DNA of 64,000 nt from Candidatus Aenigmatarchaeota archaeon (GTDB taxonomy: Archaea > Aenigmatarchaeota > Aenigmatarchaeia > Aenigmatarchaeales > JACQIB01). Both the position numbers and the translations under genes were made by a program. The notes beneath the pieces were generated by a model, which had not been told where the DNA came from, made no database searches, and worked only from the letters and a program-made list of their open reading frames with translations. Position 1 is the stretch's first letter; each line of letters starts with the position of its first letter. Shown piece after piece: positions 35,788 through 44,020 of the stretch. The stretch covers positions 160,001 through 224,000 of the forward strand of contig JACQIB010000004.1 in NCBI GenBank assembly GCA_016198755.1, in the 5' to 3' direction.

Positions 35788-35917
35788 TGGTGGACTCGGT
35801 GGGATTTTCTCCAAACCCTTTTGGGGTTTGCAAAGACCTTTTCGGAAAAGGGATTTGCTTTGAACCCACAACCTCTTGCTTGCAAAGCAAGCGATCTTCC
35901 AGTTGATCTACGAGCCC
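35788..35917 (-). tRNA. tRNA-Ala(TGC) with 54-nt T-loop intron at 59/60 (35805-35858), CCA encoded
   Basis: Acceptor GGGCTCG/CGAGTCC, anticodon arm CTTGC-TT-TGC-AA-GCAAG; removing the insert restores GTGGG-TTCAAAT-CCCAC. Confidence 0.92.
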
Positions 35918-40494: not shown

Positions 40495-40540
40495 AAAATT
40501 TTGGAGGTGATCCAGCCCCACGTTCCCGTAGGGCTACCTT

Positions 40541-40648
40541 CTCATAGGAGTGCAGCCTGGCAAAATTATCCCTCTCAATTCACCTCAGTCCCCACTTGGG
40601 GCCCGCCTTTCTTTCTTTCATAGAGGAAAAATACAGACTACACTTCCT
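40541..40648 (-). other. 16S intron 8 (108 nt, after E. coli ~C1501)
   Basis: Stem GGAAGTGTAGTCTG/CAGGCTGCACTCC; CATA/TATG helix; bulges ac|a and ag|a. Confidence 0.85.
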
Positions 40649-40650
40649 GT

Positions 40651-40681
40651 CTGTCAGTATTGCAGCTTTCACTGCAAAACA
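40651..40681 (-). other. 16S intron 7 (31 nt, after E. coli ~A1499)
   Basis: GTCA-ta|t-GTTTTGCAG...CTGCAATAC-TGAC-ag|a. Confidence 0.85.
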
Positions 40682-40822
40682 TATGACTTAGCCTTTCTTG
40701 TAAGTCTCTGGCTCGACTCTTCCCATACCCATTGCTGGAAACGAAAAAAGCCTCGCCAAAGGCTCACTCAAATGGCTTGACAGGCGGTGTGTGCAAAGAA
40801 CAGGGACGTATTCGGCGAACGA

Positions 40823-41667
40823 ATTCATGCTAGAAGCTTCGAAAAAGGTTTTATAATATTAATCAACTTATACACTGATTGATTAACAAGAACATCATTA
40901 TATTCTTCCTTTACAATATCTATAGCATCTTTTTGTATATTGCCTTCTAATATTGCTATCAATCTTACATAGGGATATTTTTGTCGAATTTTCATAGCTC
41001 TATAAGCAAGTTCTACGGCTTGCAAACGTTTCCTATAATTGAAATTCATTTGCTTTACCTCAATTATTATTTTGGGTATATTTTCAGAAGGCAAGGCAAA
41101 ATCTACTACAAAATTTCTATTGGTCCTCACTAGGGCATGAAACTTATGTGAAATGCCCAATTTCTGAAAGATTTCTATATATCTTTTTTCTTGTTCTGTA
41201 GGACCTTTTATTATTGCACCTTTCAGAGATCTTTCTTTAGACGCCTTTAAACTCATTTTTCTTGCGCGTTCAGTATCTCTAAAAGTGCCGCGTTCGGAAA
41301 TTTCATAATACCTGCGTATTAAGATTTCCCTAGAAGGAATTCTTTGCATGCATTTAATTTCTTCAAACACTTTGTTTATTACTTTTTCGTCTACACTTTT
41401 TCTAAATCCTTTCTCTATATTATAGACTGTGCCTTGACTCTTCCCTATAAACTTTGCTAATTGCCACTGACTCATATTCAATATTAAACGTAGAATCAGC
41501 AATCTCTGCGGTTTTGTATATATAATTTCAGGTTTCAGTTTCCTTAAACTGTCTGTTGTTCTATATACTTCATCACAGAGATTTTTTAATTTTAGCTTGT
41601 TTATGGTAATCACCGATATTATATTATATCGGTAACTACTATTTAACCCTTTACAGAGCTTCTAACT
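40823..41667 (-). mobile_element. 16S intron 6 (845 nt, helix 43 loop, E. coli ~1363) carrying an endonuclease-like ORF
   Basis: Full hBHBh': GGCGAACG/CGTTCGCC, TCAT/ATGA, bulges aa|a and at|t, GTTAGAAGCT/AGCTTCTAGC. Confidence 0.9.
40825..41613 (-). CDS. intron-encoded HTH(XRE) + PD-(D/E)XK-like putative homing endonuclease
   Basis: MSQWQLAKFIGKSQGTVYNIEKG HTH; PTEQE...VVDFAL...IIIEVK nuclease-like core; AT-rich, wholly inside intron. Confidence 0.75.
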   Translation of the reverse strand: MITINKLKLKNLCDEVYRTTDSLRKLKPEIIYTKPQRLLILRLILNMSQWQLAKFIGKSQGTVYNIEKGFRKSVDEKVINKVFEEIKCMQRIPSREILIRRYYEISERGTFRDTERARKMSLKASKERSLKGAIIKGPTEQEKRYIEIFQKLGISHKFHALVRTNRNFVVDFALPSENIPKIIIEVKQMNFNYRKRLQAVELAYRAMKIRQKYPYVRLIAILEGNIQKDAIDIVKEEYNDVLVNQSVYKLINIIKPFSKLLA

Positions 41668-41971
41668 TTATGACGTTCGCCTACTATGAATTCCGGCTTC
41701 ATGTGGGCGAGTTGCAGCCCACAATCTGGACTAAGATTGGGTTTAGGGGGTTAGCTTTGCCTTTCGGCATTGCATCCCATTGTCCCAACCATTGTAGGAC
41801 GCGTGTAGCCCAGAGAATTCGGGCCGTACGGACCTACCGTCGCCCACTCCTTCCTCTGCTTTAGCAGCAGCGGTCCCGCCATTGTGCTCTCTCCCCGGAG
41901 GGAAAGGTGGCAAATGGCAGCGTGGGTCTCGCTCGTTAACGGACTTAACCGCACGCCTCAAGGTACGAGCT

Positions 41972-42132
41972 TTCTCGTCTTAGCAGCCCTCATACAAAAC
42001 ATTATCTTACTTTTCTCTATGTTTTACATAATTAGCATTCCACCAACGTCGTATCAGTATTAAGTTTGAATACTGGTTGCATATCGTTGTTGAAATTTTT
42101 CAATATCCCAATTAAATTGAGACTGCCAAGAT
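41972..42132 (-). other. 16S intron 5 (161 nt, after E. coli ~C1066)
   Basis: ATCG-tc|a-TCTTGGCAGTC...GGCTGCTAAGA-CGAG-aa|a; restores CCATCGTCAGCTCG. Confidence 0.85.
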
Positions 42133-42675
42133 GACGATGGCCATGCAACTCCTCTCAGCTTGTCTGGTAAACCCGTTAGGCTGACCCTCATTCTGCTGTC
42201 TTCTCTGGTAAGATGTCCGGTGTTAAATCCAATTGAACCGCATCCTCCACTCATTGTGTGTTCCCCCGCCAATTCCTTTAAGTTTCAGCCTTGCGGCCGT
42301 ACTCCCCAGGTGGCCCGCTTAACATCTACACTTCGGCACTGCATGTTCACGTAGAACGTGCAACACCAAGCGGGCATCGTTTACGGCTGGGACTACTGGG
42401 GTATCTAATCCCAATCGCTCCCCCAGCTGTCGCCCCTCACTGTCAGACTCGTTTTCGGTAGACGCCTTCGCCACAGGTGGTCCTCCACGGATTAAAGGAT
42501 TTAACCCCTACACGTGGAATACCTCTACCGTCTCCCGATCTCAAGGCTTGGAGTATCTCCAGCGCGCCTGACAGTTAGCTGCCAGATTTCACCAGAGACT
42601 TTCAAGCCCAGCTACGGGCGCTTTAGACCCAATAAACGCGATAGCCATTTGGACCGCGGGTATTACCGCGGCGGC

Positions 42676-42706
42676 GTGTGCGAACAAAGTCTACTGACTT
42701 TGAACA
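42676..42706 (-). other. 16S intron 4 (31 nt, after E. coli ~A520)
   Basis: GTGC-ca|t-...CAAAGTC/GACTTTG...-GCAC-ac|g; restores GTGCCAGCCGCCGCGGTAA. Confidence 0.9.
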
Positions 42707-42918
42707 TGGCACCCGTCTTACCCAGTCCTTATTCGCCTAGGTTTTTAGCCTAAGCAAAAGCTCGTGCAAAGCACGAGCACTCGAGGTTCCCTTCTCACAC
42801 GCTAATGCATTGGAAAGTTTTCGCTCCTGCTGCGACCCGTAGGCCCTGCGCTCATGTCTCAGAGCGCATCTGGAGGCTCACACTCTCATGTCCCCTACCC
42901 GTCACAGGCTTGTCAGTT

Positions 42919-42979
42919 TTATAAAGCAGGTAGCTTATGCTACCAAAAATTATTTTGGCAAACTAAGTTTGCCTATGCA
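42919..42979 (-). other. 16S intron 3 (61 nt, helix 11 loop, E. coli ~265)
   Basis: GTCAGT/ACTGAC outer stem, GTAA/TTAT helix, bulges ag|t and aa|a. Confidence 0.8.
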
Positions 42980-43086
42980 CTTTACACTGACAACAACCTG
43001 ATAGGCCGCAGTCCCATTCTATGGCGCCGGAGCTTTCACTTTTGGTGCATTCCAGCATCCAAAAACTATGGGGCATTAGCCTCACT

Positions 43087-43115
43087 TTTGCGTTCACTTT
43101 CAAAAGAAAGTGGAA
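43087..43115 (-). other. 16S intron 2 (29 nt, helix 8 loop, E. coli ~161)
   Basis: TGCG-aa|t-..CACTTTC/GAAAGTG..-CGCA-aa|a; restores CTTGC-GAAA-GTGAG. Confidence 0.88.
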
Positions 43116-43161
43116 TTCGCAAGATTATTCCCCACCATAGAGTAGGTTAACTACGTGTTAC

Positions 43162-43833
43162 TCAGCAGTGCGCCGAGGGCAAGAGCGGATTAAATAGAAC
43201 CTTACCAGTCTTTTTACAATAAAAATAGTTTTTAAATTCCTTAGAAAGACATCTTACTTTTTCTAACTTTAGTGGATGTTTAAATTTTATTATTCTACAA
43301 AACTTTCTAAAATTTTTAGCACCTTTTATTCGCCACCAATATACATCGTTTTTTCCATAAACTTTTGATACATGAATACCATATGTTTCTAATAATTCTT
43401 TACTCCATATGCAAAAATCCTTAGATTTAATTTGTAGTTCTATTACAGGATATTCATATATAGACATCATGGTCTTTCTCTTATACCTTTGGACTTCTTT
43501 GAATACGGAACAATCACCATCAAAAAATCCTATAAGAAAATTCATCTTTTCTTTTCTATTTATGTGCACTGGTGGAGTGATGTCATGAGACTTTTTCCCT
43601 GGTTTTATATGATAAAGTCTCTTAAATTTTTCGTATAGCTTACGATCACTTACCCTTATCTGAAATACTCTTTTTCTTAATTTGTAAGTAACCTTGTTTT
43701 TTGCAAATTTTTGAAGATTTTTTACTATATCATCTCTGAAGCGCTTGTTATTTGTGTAGACATAGACATACGGTCTATATTTTTCTAAATGACCATCTGC
43801 AGCTATTAAACCGGCCATATAAGAAAATTTCAT
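43162..43833 (-). CDS. double-motif LAGLIDADG homing endonuclease (intron-encoded)
   Basis: YMAGLIAADG and FLIGFFDGDCS motifs. Confidence 0.93.
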   Translation of the reverse strand: MKFSYMAGLIAADGHLEKYRPYVYVYTNNKRFRDDIVKNLQKFAKNKVTYKLRKRVFQIRVSDRKLYEKFKRLYHIKPGKKSHDITPPVHINRKEKMNFLIGFFDGDCSVFKEVQRYKRKTMMSIYEYPVIELQIKSKDFCIWSKELLETYGIHVSKVYGKNDVYWWRIKGAKNFRKFCRIIKFKHPLKLEKVRCLSKEFKNYFYCKKTGKVLFNPLLPSAHC

Positions 43834-43901
43834 ATATTATTCTATGACGATATACAACTTATAGATTTCTATGTTTCGTTAGTAGTGTTCTACTTAATCC
43901 T
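43181..43901 (-). mobile_element. 16S intron 1 (721 nt, helix 6) with LAGLIDADG ORF
   Basis: GGATTAAGTAGAAC/GTTCTATTTAATCC terminal stem, GGGT/GCTC helix, bulges aa|a and tt|g; boundaries +/-1 nt. Confidence 0.88.
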
Positions 43902-44020
43902 TTACCCCTCTCGGCTCGCATGGATAAATCGAACCCCGATAACGGCTATCTCCGGCAGGATCAACCGGAATTAAATTAGGGGGGATTTCACAAACCTAAT
44001 GGTTTGCGTTCCCTGTTTTC

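What the first reader, a model, noticed from the sequence alone, without database searches (positions are those of the whole stretch)
40541..40690. Two-nucleotide micro-exon in the 16S decoding region that implies obligatory ordered splicing
Seen: the sense strand reads AAGTCATA|31-nt intron|AC|108-nt intron|AAGGTAGCC. Removing both at canonical BHB cut positions restores the conserved AAGTCATAACAAGGTAGCC (E. coli ~1492-1510). Intron 7 uses the helix GTCA/TGAC with bulges ta|t and ag|a. Intron 8 needs the helix CATA/TATG plus the bulge ac|a. That bulge exists only after intron 7 is ligated, and CA is shared by the two mutually exclusive helices. Inference: a strict 7-then-8 cascade builds the decoding site through a 2-nt exon. 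Sequential BHB formation is known for multi-intron Thermoproteales tRNAs; I do not know of it in an rRNA.
Basis: partly seen in the sequence, partly recalled or inferred. Interest (0 to 1): 0.92.

Follow-up and report, generated by a model that had tools for sequence, protein, structure and literature searches.

The report
Two-base exon between two rRNA introns
In the only 16S ribosomal RNA gene of a tiny groundwater archaeon, two protein-spliced introns sit two bases apart in the decoding region, so the first must be removed and the RNA rejoined before the second can even be recognised.

Summary
The 16S gene lies on the minus strand (~43971 to ~40503) and has eight introns. At its 3' end the sense strand reads AAGTCATA | 31 nt | AC | 108 nt | AAGGTAGCC.

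Comparison with relatives fixes the reading:
- Intron-less relatives carry the 19-mer uninterrupted.
- 15 other unique sequences carry a homologue of the 108-nt intron right after ..CATAAC. Its bulge-helix-bulge (BHB) motif co-varies, including CGTA:TACG in one genome.
- About 30 sequences in the class, including a family member, have a BHB intron at the 31-nt intron's site, after A1499.

Only this genome and G265, from another family, occupy both sites and leave the same AC exon.

The 31-nt intron splits the central helix of the 108-nt intron (CATA) from its 5' bulge (AC|A). That helix scores 1/4 in the primary transcript and 4/4 after in-silico removal of the 31-nt intron. Pair probability rises from 0.002 to 0.65.

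The genome encodes an (alpha-beta)2-type splicing endonuclease and RtcB. A contig from a second sample matches the DNA exactly.

No RNA evidence could be obtained, so the ordered cascade stays a well-supported inference. I rate it a new variant of a known kind.

The parts
40503..43971 (-). 16S rRNA gene with eight introns; the only SSU gene found in the 0.89-Mb genome
   Evidence: Rfam RF01959 scores 1035 bits over 41601-43226. The 5' end motif GGTTGATCCTGCCGGAG is at 43966-43950. The 3' end GGATCACCTCC was read. G000 gave 1 SSU match.
40682..40822 (-). Exon holding helix 44 and ending in AAGTCATA (to A1499)
   Evidence: Alignment to intron-less relatives.
40651..40681 (-). Intron 7: a 31-nt hairpin mini-intron inserted between A1499 and A1500
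   Evidence: Central helix GTCA (40687-40684) pairs with TGAC (40656-40653), 4/4. Bulges are TA|T and AG|A; inner helix 7/8. The MFE fold equals the BHB, z = -2.68. P(helix) is 0.66-0.68 in the precursor. No similar sequence was found in 41 other genomes of the order.
40649..40650 (-). Two-nucleotide exon AC (A1500, C1501)
   Evidence: It is needed to restore the 19-mer that relatives carry uninterrupted. It is collinear with the AC|N 5' junction of all 16 intron-8-type sequences. The same AC exon occurs in G265.
40541..40648 (-). Intron 8: a 108-nt structured BHB intron after C1501, member of a family shared with the order
   Evidence: After in-silico removal of intron 7 the central helix is CATA (40685-40682) paired with TATG (40546-40543), 4/4. 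Bulges are AC|A and AG|A; outer helix 6/8. In the precursor the helix is 1/4, with P = 0.001-0.002, against 0.65 in the intermediate. The conserved core is shown.
40503..40540 (-). Last exon: AAGGTAGCC, helix 45 and the CCUCC tail
   Evidence: It matches the 3' exon found in 183 of 371 genomes of the class.
40823..41667 (-). Intron 6: 845 nt, a perfect BHB, holding a 262-aa ORF
   Evidence: TCAT:ATGA 4/4, inner helix 8/8, outer helix 8/8. The ORF at 40825-41613 matches only HTH_3.
41972..42132 (-). Intron 5: about 161 nt
   Evidence: Alignment. Central helix 3/4 at the boundary implied by homology, inner helix 8/8.
42676..42706 (-). Intron 4: a 31-nt hairpin mini-intron in the GTGCCA|GCCGCC (515) region
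   Evidence: GTGC:GCAC 4/4, bulges CA|T and AC|G.
42919..42979 (-). Intron 3: about 61 nt; boundaries good to about 1 nt
   Evidence: Alignment. GTAA:TTAT 4/4, outer helix 8/8.
43087..43115 (-). Intron 2: a 29-nt hairpin mini-intron
   Evidence: TGCG:CGCA 4/4, inner helix 7/8.
43180..43903 (-). Intron 1: about 721-725 nt with a LAGLIDADG ORF; boundaries good to about 3 nt
   Evidence: The ORF at 43162-43833 matches LAGLIDADG_3 at 1.8e-14.

Best explanation
Two archaeal BHB introns occupy neighbouring sites in the 16S strand between helices 44 and 45, after A1499 and after C1501. They leave a genuine two-base exon, AC.

Intron 7 is a hairpin-only mini-intron. It lies inside the recognition motif of intron 8, between that motif's central helix strand (CAUA, all exon) and its 5' bulge (AC|A).

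The proposed pathway is:
1. In the primary transcript only intron 7's motif can form (GUCA:UGAC plus its hairpin). It is also transcribed about 100 nt before the 3' half of intron 8's motif.
2. The (alpha-beta)2 splicing endonuclease cuts at UA|U and AG|A.
3. RtcB joins A1499 to A1500.
4. This frees CA and brings CAUA next to AC, so CAUA:UAUG can pair and intron 8's motif exists for the first time.
5. Intron 8 is then cut at AC|A and AG|A, and C1501 is joined to A1502.

If all four cuts came before the first ligation, the AC dinucleotide would be lost.

Shown here: the DNA sequence, the motifs, their dependence on one another, homology of each intron to single-intron relatives, and the presence of the enzymes. 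Inferred: that splicing occurs, and its order.
For: Sequence and motifs:
- Intron 7: central helix 4/4, inner helix 7/8.
- Intron 8: central helix 1/4 in the precursor and 4/4 in the intermediate, with outer helix 6/8.

Pair probabilities:
- Precursor: GUCA:UGAC 0.66-0.68; CAUA:UAUG 0.001-0.002.
- Intermediate: CAUA:UAUG 0.65, 0.65, 0.64 and 0.24.

The MFE of the precursor shows intron 7's BHB, and the MFE of the intermediate pairs the CAUA region with UAUG.

Homology:
- 9 of 21 relatives with a 3' end are uninterrupted, 11 of 21 have the intron-8 homologue after ..CATAAC, and 1 has another intron.
- In 16 unique intron-8-type sequences the central helix pairs in 16/16, 16/16, 16/16 and 15/16. 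One compensatory A-U to G-C change is present (L018). Inner-helix pairs 1-4 are kept in 15-16 of 16 through 3-5 pair types.
- The site after A1499 carries BHB introns in about 30 unique sequences of the class. These include hairpin minis of 29, 32 and 43 nt and a 350-nt intron with a LAGLIDADG-like ORF in family member G005.
- Within the family, G001 has neither intron, G005 has the 1499 site, G002 and G003 have the 1501 site, and G000 has both.
- G265, from another family, has the same AC exon between a 302-nt and a 921-nt intron. Its downstream central helix goes from 1/4 to 3/4, and both inner helices are 8/8.

Enzymes:
- Two adjacent endonuclease genes were found.
- The 178-aa protein is closest to the Nanoarchaeum equitans alpha subunit (3IEY_A, 8.8e-29) and shares that protein's loop insertion before the conserved EH residues.
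- The 173-aa protein has no His at the corresponding position.
- RtcB is present.

Other support: this is the single SSU gene in the genome, and a contig from a second sample is identical.
Against: There is no RNA evidence. RNA runs X19 and X20 show zero depth over 40598-40715 and no joint there, and nothing shows that this organism's rRNA is in them.

Intron 7 has almost no outer helix (3/8), so its 3' bulge is not closed on the exon side. It is a relaxed motif whose cleavage depends on a broad-specificity enzyme, which is inferred from sequence only.

The thermodynamic model gives the fourth pair of CAUA:UAUG only 0.24. It also prefers to extend the helix by one U-A pair rather than leave a clean 3-nt bulge.

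An alternative 139-nt excision (cuts TG|T and AG|A) also has a 4/4 central helix and a 6/8 outer helix.

The genome is 89% complete, so a second, uninterrupted 16S gene cannot be excluded.
Confidence: 0.75

Rival explanations
1. The whole region leaves in one step. The helix CAUA:UAUG forms in the primary transcript, and the endonuclease cuts at TG|T and AG|A. This removes 139 nt and gives a 16S of the right length but with UG in place of A1500 and C1501. A variant uses intron 7's 5' site and intron 8's 3' site and deletes AC.
For: For the 139-nt cut, the central helix is 4/4 and the outer helix 6/8, with a canonical 3' bulge. A broad-specificity endonuclease can accept motifs that lack one flanking helix (PMC5829648, passages).
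Against: The inner helix is 1/8, and P(CAUA:UAUG) in the precursor is 0.001-0.002, because CA is held in intron 7's helix. The 141-nt variant has a central helix of 1/4. The product would break a motif that every examined relative keeps: all 21, and 70 of 143 unique class sequences have it uninterrupted. AC lies exactly where the family's AC|N junction lies in 16 of 16 sequences. The same AC recurs in G265.
Confidence: 0.06
2. Both introns are removed and AC is kept, but the order is not strict. The 3' site of intron 8 may be cut early, or one enzyme-bound complex may resolve both motifs. '7 then 8' would then be a tendency rather than a rule.
For: Intron 8's long inner stem and its outer helix GGCUA:UAGCC can form in the precursor, so its 3' bulge region is partly built. 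In other systems several BHB motifs are processed in an order set by stability even when each folds on its own (PMC3978253, passage; PMC5829648, passage).
Against: The 5' cut at AC|A needs CAUA next to AC, which is impossible with 31 nt between them (helix 1/4). If both cuts flanking AC preceded ligation, a free dinucleotide with nothing to hold it would be lost. So at least 'ligate intron 7's junction before cutting intron 8's 5' site' is forced.
Confidence: 0.1
3. One or both insertions are not spliced and rejoined. They might stay in the rRNA as expansion segments, or be cut out without ligation to give a fragmented 16S. Alternatively this gene copy is defective and another copy serves the cell.
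For: No RNA data. The genome is 89% complete. Intron 7 lacks an outer helix.
Against: Both insertions have exact BHB geometry at positions that restore the conserved sequence. The BHB of the intron-8 family co-varies. The gene has six further BHB introns. Endonuclease and RtcB genes are present. Only one SSU match was found in the genome. Double occupancy recurs in G265. From general knowledge of the ribosome, the 1492-1506 strand is tightly packed at the decoding centre; this was not tested here.
Confidence: 0.07
4. Assembly artefact: the arrangement is a chimera of strains that each carry one of the two introns.
For: The genome is metagenome-assembled, and single-intron relatives exist.
Against: A 1369-nt contig assembled independently from a different sample (X2) spans 40511-41879 with 0 differences. 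No joint skipping either intron appears in DNA runs X2 or X5, though contigs can hide rare variants. An independent genome shows the same architecture.
Confidence: 0.02

Closest known systems
Neighbouring 16S rRNA introns of Thermoproteales: the hairpin intron Pog.S1205 beside the endonuclease-coding Pog.S1213 in Pyrobaculum oguniense, and loci 901/908
   Same: These are BHB introns in a 16S gene. A short hairpin-only intron (<50 nt) sits next to a larger intron, and several intron sites cluster in conserved strands (PMC4496867, passages read; it cites Nakayama 2003, which I did not see).
   Different: There the introns are 8 and 7 nt apart, enough for the downstream motif's six exonic bases to stay intact. 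The passages I read propose no dependence of one splicing event on the other. Here the exon is 2 nt and the upstream intron splits the downstream motif. The lineage differs too: a small-genome groundwater archaeon, GC about 38%. The site (1499-1501) is not among the 13 loci listed there.
Multi-intron pre-tRNAs processed in order (Cyanidioschyzon merolae; Methanopyrus kandleri pre-tRNA-Glu; Thermoproteales tRNAs with up to three introns)
   Same: The same enzyme system acts on several BHB motifs in one transcript, and an order of removal is observed or proposed (PMC3978253, passage; PMC5829648, passage).
   Different: [quoted passage not shown] Here the second motif does not exist until the first splice is finished. 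The paper (PMC1852824) is not held.
Twintrons and recursive or micro-exon splicing in eukaryotes and organelles (recalled, no call)
   Same: One splicing event must precede another, and exons can be very short.
   Different: The chemistry and machinery differ (spliceosome or self-splicing). Here intron 7 is not inside intron 8's own sequence. It lies in the exon part of intron 8's recognition motif.
Group I introns at SSU/1498 in DPANN archaea (Nawrocki et al. 2018, PMC6125680)
   Same: The same few nucleotides of the 16S act as an intron hot spot in related lineages. One class member's intron after U1498 (L368) matches Rfam Intron_gpI at 70 bits.
   Different: Introns 7 and 8 have no Rfam group I match and are too small. 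They carry BHB geometry instead.

Membership tests
Archaeal bulge-helix-bulge (BHB) intron: intron 7 | 4-bp central helix flanked by two 3-nt bulges on opposite strands, with cuts after the second bulge base | tested here: met
   GTCA:TGAC 4/4, bulges TA|T and AG|A. The MFE fold shows it.
Archaeal bulge-helix-bulge (BHB) intron: intron 7 | Flanking helices h (exon side) and h' (intron side), as in the strict hBHBh' form | tested here: inconclusive
   The inner helix is 7/8 but the outer helix only 3/8. This is a relaxed HBh'-like form.
Archaeal bulge-helix-bulge (BHB) intron: intron 7 | Removal restores the conserved host sequence | tested here: met
   Removing introns 7 and 8 gives the 19-mer that 9 of 21 relatives carry uninterrupted.
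Archaeal bulge-helix-bulge (BHB) intron: intron 8 | 4-bp central helix, two 3-nt bulges and flanking helices | tested here: met
   Met only in the intron-7-spliced intermediate: CATA:TATG 4/4, AC|A and AG|A, outer helix 6/8, and a long inner stem with one bulged A. Not met in the primary transcript (1/4).
Archaeal bulge-helix-bulge (BHB) intron: intron 8 | Motif kept by covariation among homologues | tested here: met
   In 16 unique sequences there is one compensatory change in the central helix and 3-5 pair types at inner-helix pairs 1-4.
Archaeal BHB intron (both) | Host encodes the splicing endonuclease and the RtcB ligase | tested here: met
   Two adjacent tRNA_int_endo genes and RtcB at 469.8 bits.
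Archaeal BHB intron (both) | Excision and exon ligation seen in RNA | not testable with these tools
   The only RNA runs offered do not cover the region.
Hairpin-only mini-intron (the 'HP' class of Jay & Inskeep 2015): intron 7 | <50 nt, forms a single hairpin, no ORF, at a site that elsewhere holds longer introns | tested here: met
   31 nt made of 1 + 9 + 6 + 9 + 4 + 2. The same site holds 29-795-nt introns in the class and a 350-nt ORF-bearing one in G005. The class definition comes from a PMC4496867 passage.
(alpha-beta)2 splicing endonuclease with broad specificity | Separate catalytic alpha and structural beta genes | tested here: met
   Adjacent 178-aa and 173-aa ORFs, each with N- and C-terminal endonuclease domains. 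The best PDB hits are the N. equitans alpha subunit and the first (EndA-like) half of the M. kandleri fusion chain. The 173-aa protein has no His at the aligned position.
(alpha-beta)2 splicing endonuclease with broad specificity | Specific loop insertion with a conserved Lys that confers cleavage of relaxed motifs | tested here: inconclusive
   An insertion (KGVKPLKRGPKSAGEH) aligns with that of N. equitans alpha and is absent from M. kandleri. Equating it with the 'L3' loop of PMC5829648 is my inference. Activity was not tested.
Group I intron | Match to the catalytic core model | tested here: not met
   No Intron_gpI match in the window at the gathering or E-value thresholds. The same model does detect L368.

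The most novel reading that the evidence does not exclude
The 2-nt exon is the extreme case of a class-wide habit. BHB introns stack on the 1492-1502 strand of the 16S and leave exons of 2, 5, 7, 9 and 10 nt. Many of these introns carry a box C/D-like module. Its guide-like stretches are complementary to the two strands that build the decoding centre: GUCAAGCCA at about 1405-1413, and the UCACCUCC tail.

On this reading the introns act in cis as guides or chaperones. The forced order of their removal, with RtcB joining a 2-nt piece that is templated by the next intron's motif, would be a built-in checkpoint for the last steps of small-subunit maturation.
Probability: 0.2. Interest if true: 0.85.

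Novelty: new variant of a known kind. Interest (0 to 1): 0.66.

Why it matters
BHB splicing is usually described as one self-contained motif per intron. Here the motif of one intron is built by the ligation product of another, and the intervening exon is too short to be held by base pairing.

That sets a hard requirement on the timing of endonuclease and ligase, in the most conserved strand of the ribosome, in an organism with a single 16S gene. It also offers a simple defined substrate of about 300 nt for asking how archaeal endonuclease and RtcB are coordinated.

There is a practical consequence. Covariance-model annotation put the 3' end of this 16S gene about 1.1 kb too early. Universal primers that reach the 1492 region would fail, so such lineages are easily mis-annotated or missed.

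Tried and rejected
RNA evidence. One run search and one read laying were allowed. RNA runs X19 and X20 hold only conserved 16S parts. They gave no cover of 40598-40715 and no joint at either intron, so they say nothing either way.

Wide pattern scans. My pattern for a mini-intron after TAAGTCATA was too permissive (15 specified bases with a 30-nt variable gap). 0 matches among all loci fetched after L064 (scan loci included) lay in a 16S context. These scans therefore show nothing about absence, and their caps are spent.

BLAST of intron 7 in the 42 genomes of the order found only the genome itself. This holds for those genomes, not for nature.

Class survey. Of 371 genomes, 183 had a 3'-exon match. 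I fetched 100 of the 150 listed places, plus the 30 loci returned by the call. The other listed places and 39 unlisted matches were not examined.

Automatic searches for double introns:
- A first regex count took wrong 5' sites and was discarded.
- A loose automatic scan gave many implausible parses, such as 'introns' of 1300 nt reaching back into the 16S body, and it missed both 2-nt cases. I use from it only parses with 4/4 central helices and at least 7/8 inner helices, and I checked L356, L424, L421 and L315 separately.

Group I reading of introns 7 and 8: rejected, with no Rfam match.

Boundaries of introns 1, 3 and 5 could not be fixed to the base. The best BHB and the best alignment differ by 1-4 nt.

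PMC1852824 is not held. Supplements were not opened.

Literature. Searches for a micro-exon or ordered BHB splicing in rRNA found no description. This covers only the held library and those terms.

No structure prediction, complex prediction or large protein search was run, because none would bear on the question.

Full report
WHAT IS THERE. The window holds one archaeal 16S rRNA gene on the minus strand. Rfam aligns only 41601-43226 (1035 bits) and forces a false 3' end. The true 5' end (GGTTGATCCTGCCGGAG) is at 43966-43950, and the true 3' end (GGATCACCTCC) is at about 40513-40503.

Alignment with three relatives and BHB scoring give eight insertions:

| Intron | Size | Note |
|---|---|---|
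| 1 | ~721-725 nt | ORF matches LAGLIDADG_3 at 1.8e-14 |
| 2 | 29 nt | hairpin mini-intron |
| 3 | ~61 nt | |
| 4 | 31 nt | hairpin mini-intron |
| 5 | ~161 nt | |
| 6 | 845 nt | perfect BHB; ORF matches only HTH_3 |
| 7 | 31 nt | hairpin mini-intron |
| 8 | 108 nt | |

The genome (G000) is 0.89 Mb in 6 contigs and 89% complete, and it has one SSU match. Runs that hold the DNA are groundwater metagenomes. I take it to be a DPANN-type archaeon from its size, its relatives and its endonuclease. That is an inference, not a classification.

THE OBSERVATION. On the sense strand the exon ends with AAGTCATA at 40682. Intron 7 is 40681-40651. AC is 40650-40649. Intron 8 is 40648-40541. The exon resumes with AAGGTAGCC at 40540.

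A contig of 1369 nt, assembled independently from another sample of the same study (run X2), covers 40511-41879 without a single difference. The arrangement is therefore not an artefact of one assembly.

WHY AC IS AN EXON. Three lines of comparison agree.

First, of 21 relatives in the order whose 3' end I could read, 9 carry AAGTCATAACAAGGTAGCC uninterrupted. Another 11 carry an insertion directly after ..CATAAC, and one has a different large intron.

Second, those insertions are homologues of intron 8, with a shared core. In 16 unique sequences, with ours taken after intron 7 is cut out in silico, the findings are:
- the 5' junction is AC|N in 16 of 16;
- the central helix pairs in 16/16, 16/16, 16/16 and 15/16;
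- L018, which has G at 1497, has the compensating TACG;
- inner-helix pairs 1-4 are kept in 15-16 of 16 through three to five pair types.
Our sequence fits this family only if AC is the end of the exon.

Third, the place of intron 7, after A1499, is itself a common BHB-intron site in the class. A right-anchored parse found 34 of 50 candidates with a central helix of at least 3/4 and an inner helix of at least 5/8. Most read GTCG:CGAT or GTCG:CGAC with bulges TA|A and AA|A. They include hairpin minis of 29, 32 and 43 nt; a few of these parses took a wrong 5' site.

In the same family as G000, the distribution is:
- G005 has a 350-nt intron with a LAGLIDADG-like ORF at this site (GTCA:TGAT, 4/4) and nothing at 1501.
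- G002 and G003 have only the 1501 intron.
- G001 has neither.
- G000 has both.

Intron 7's own sequence was not found in the other 41 genomes of the order.

A SECOND CASE. G265, in another family of the class, reads ..GGGCTAA | ~42-nt intron | AGTCGTA | 302-nt intron | AC | 921-nt intron with a 265-aa LAGLIDADG-like ORF | AAGGTAGCC.
- The upstream intron has GTCG:CGAC 4/4 and an 8/8 inner helix.
- The downstream intron has a 1/4 central helix in the precursor and CGTA:GACG 3/4 once the upstream intron is removed, with an 8/8 inner helix.
- These introns are unrelated in sequence to introns 7 and 8.

The two-base exon has therefore arisen at least twice, which argues that it is workable rather than a dead gene.

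WHY ORDER IS FORCED. A BHB needs, on the 5' side, four exon bases of the central helix followed at once by the two exon bases of the bulge. For intron 8 these are CATA and AC, and intron 7 lies exactly between them.

| State | Helix | Score or probability |
|---|---|---|
| Primary transcript | intron 8 central helix (ACAG:TATG) | 1/4 |
| Primary transcript | CAUA:UAUG | P = 0.001-0.002 |
| Primary transcript | intron 7 helix GUCA:UGAC | P = 0.66-0.68 |
| Intron 7 removed in silico | CAUA:UAUG | P = 0.65, 0.65, 0.64, 0.24 |
| Intron 7 removed in silico | intron 8 motif | 4/4, outer helix 6/8 |

The minimum-energy folds show the same switch. Intron 7 with its flanks folds as a BHB on its own, with z = -2.68.

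Intron 7's motif is also complete about 100 nt of transcription before the UAUG of intron 8 exists, which favours it kinetically. That point is inference.

Because a free dinucleotide cannot be held by pairing, the junction A1499-A1500 must be ligated before AC|A is cut. The 3' cut of intron 8 is not bound by this argument.

THE ENZYMES. Two adjacent genes encode proteins of 178 and 173 aa, each with both endonuclease domains.
- The first is most like the Nanoarchaeum equitans alpha subunit (8.8e-29). It shares that protein's insertion before the conserved EH residues.
- That insertion is missing in the Methanopyrus enzyme. The Methanopyrus enzyme lacks the specificity loop and cuts relaxed motifs poorly (PMC5829648, abstract and passages).
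- The second protein has no His at the aligned position. It matches the first (EndA-like) half of the Methanopyrus fusion chain best.

This fits an (alpha-beta)2 enzyme able to cut relaxed motifs such as intron 7, whose outer helix is nearly absent (3/8). RtcB is present, with a large insertion.

WHAT IS NOT SHOWN. No transcript was seen. The two RNA runs offered hold only conserved 16S segments, have no depth over the introns and show no joints at them.

Rivals are scored in their own section: a one-step 139-nt excision giving UG for AC, a looser order, no ligation or a second gene copy, and a chimeric assembly. Together I give them about a quarter of the probability.

COMPARISON WITH WHAT IS KNOWN. 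The nearest precedent is in Thermoproteales 16S genes. There, hairpin-only introns under 50 nt sit 8 nt (loci 1205/1213) or 7 nt (901/908) from endonuclease-coding introns (PMC4496867, passages). Those spacings leave the downstream motif intact.

Group I introns at SSU/1498 are known in DPANN lineages (PMC6125680, passages). One class member here has one (L368, Rfam 70 bits).

My six literature searches found no description of a BHB-flanked exon of a few bases in an rRNA, or of a BHB motif created by a preceding splice in an rRNA. This covers the held library only.

VERDICT.
- Novelty: a new variant of a known kind.
- Interest: 0.66. It would surprise specialists in archaeal RNA processing and can be tested directly with a 300-nt substrate, but it extends known BHB biology rather than overturning it.

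Noticed in passing
L315 (G265), about 1300 nt before the 16S 3' end: Three introns lie within ten bases of the mature 16S..GGGCTAA | ~42 nt | AGTCGTA | 302 nt | AC | 921 nt (with a 265-aa LAGLIDADG-like ORF) | AAGG... This is a second, independent 2-nt AC exon.
   Followed up: yes
L356 (G286), L424 (G285), L421 (G005), L410/L411 (G112/G109), L346, L387, L427, L390: Other very short exons between two BHB introns in the same 16S strand: TCGTA (5 nt, where the downstream central helix loses one pair until the upstream 31-32-nt hairpin intron is removed), AGTCATA or AGTCGTA (7 nt), 9 nt and 10 nt. L356, L424 and L421 were checked separately. The rest are script parses at stringent thresholds.
   Followed up: partly
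Introns in L314, L340, L341, L355, L425, L426, L434, L411, L317; window 40541-40648: Introns of other families in the class contain a box C/D-like layout: AAGATGA .. TGGCTTGAC. CTGA .. ATGATGA .. GGAGGTGAAT. TGA. They have 9-10 nt complementary to their own 16S at GTCAAGCCA (about 1405-1413) and 8 nt complementary to the 3' tail TCACCTCC. Intron 8 and its 15 homologues keep AGGTGA..TGAG, an AGGCGG-like stretch (with variants such as AGGCAG and AGGCGA) and a closing stem. Box names and the target positions (about A1408 and C1535) are my reading; nothing was tested. Six-base matches alone are not significant.
   Followed up: partly
L368, L009, L417: These are large introns after U1498 that end in G. 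L368 matches Rfam Intron_gpI (70 bits, E = 1.3e-16). L009 and L417 gave no match at the gathering threshold. The site agrees with SSU/1498 of PMC6125680.
   Followed up: partly
G000 contig C5 42797-45628 (L063/L064): The RtcB match is split: profile positions 1-50 and 48-426 lie about 1.4 kb apart within one 1010-aa open frame. This suggests an intein or other large insertion.
   Followed up: no
window 40825-41613 (-): The 262-aa ORF inside intron 6 matches only helix-turn-helix families (HTH_3, 1.7e-05) and no LAGLIDADG family, unlike the ORF of intron 1. Its role is unknown. My guess of a C-terminal nuclease fold was not tested.
   Followed up: partly
L324, L326, L331 and introns of L314, L340 and others: Several class members read AAGTCGCCACAAGG, with CC instead of UA at 1498-1499. 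This is an unusual change in a near-universal strand.
   Followed up: no
window 35848-35910 (-): There is a weak, partial tRNA match (30.9 bits, model positions 8-63) that ARAGORN does not call. It may be an interrupted or split tRNA gene.
   Followed up: no
window 41601-41690 and 43180-43226: The Rfam SSU alignment invents both ends of the gene inside introns 6 and 1. Automatic annotation would report a 1.6-kb gene instead of the 3.47-kb one.
   Followed up: yes
run X5 contigs laid on window 41751, 41935, 42209 and 42473: Relatives in another groundwater study carry 30-35-nt insertions at further 16S positions (table 5c). Hairpin mini-introns therefore seem common in these communities.
   Followed up: no
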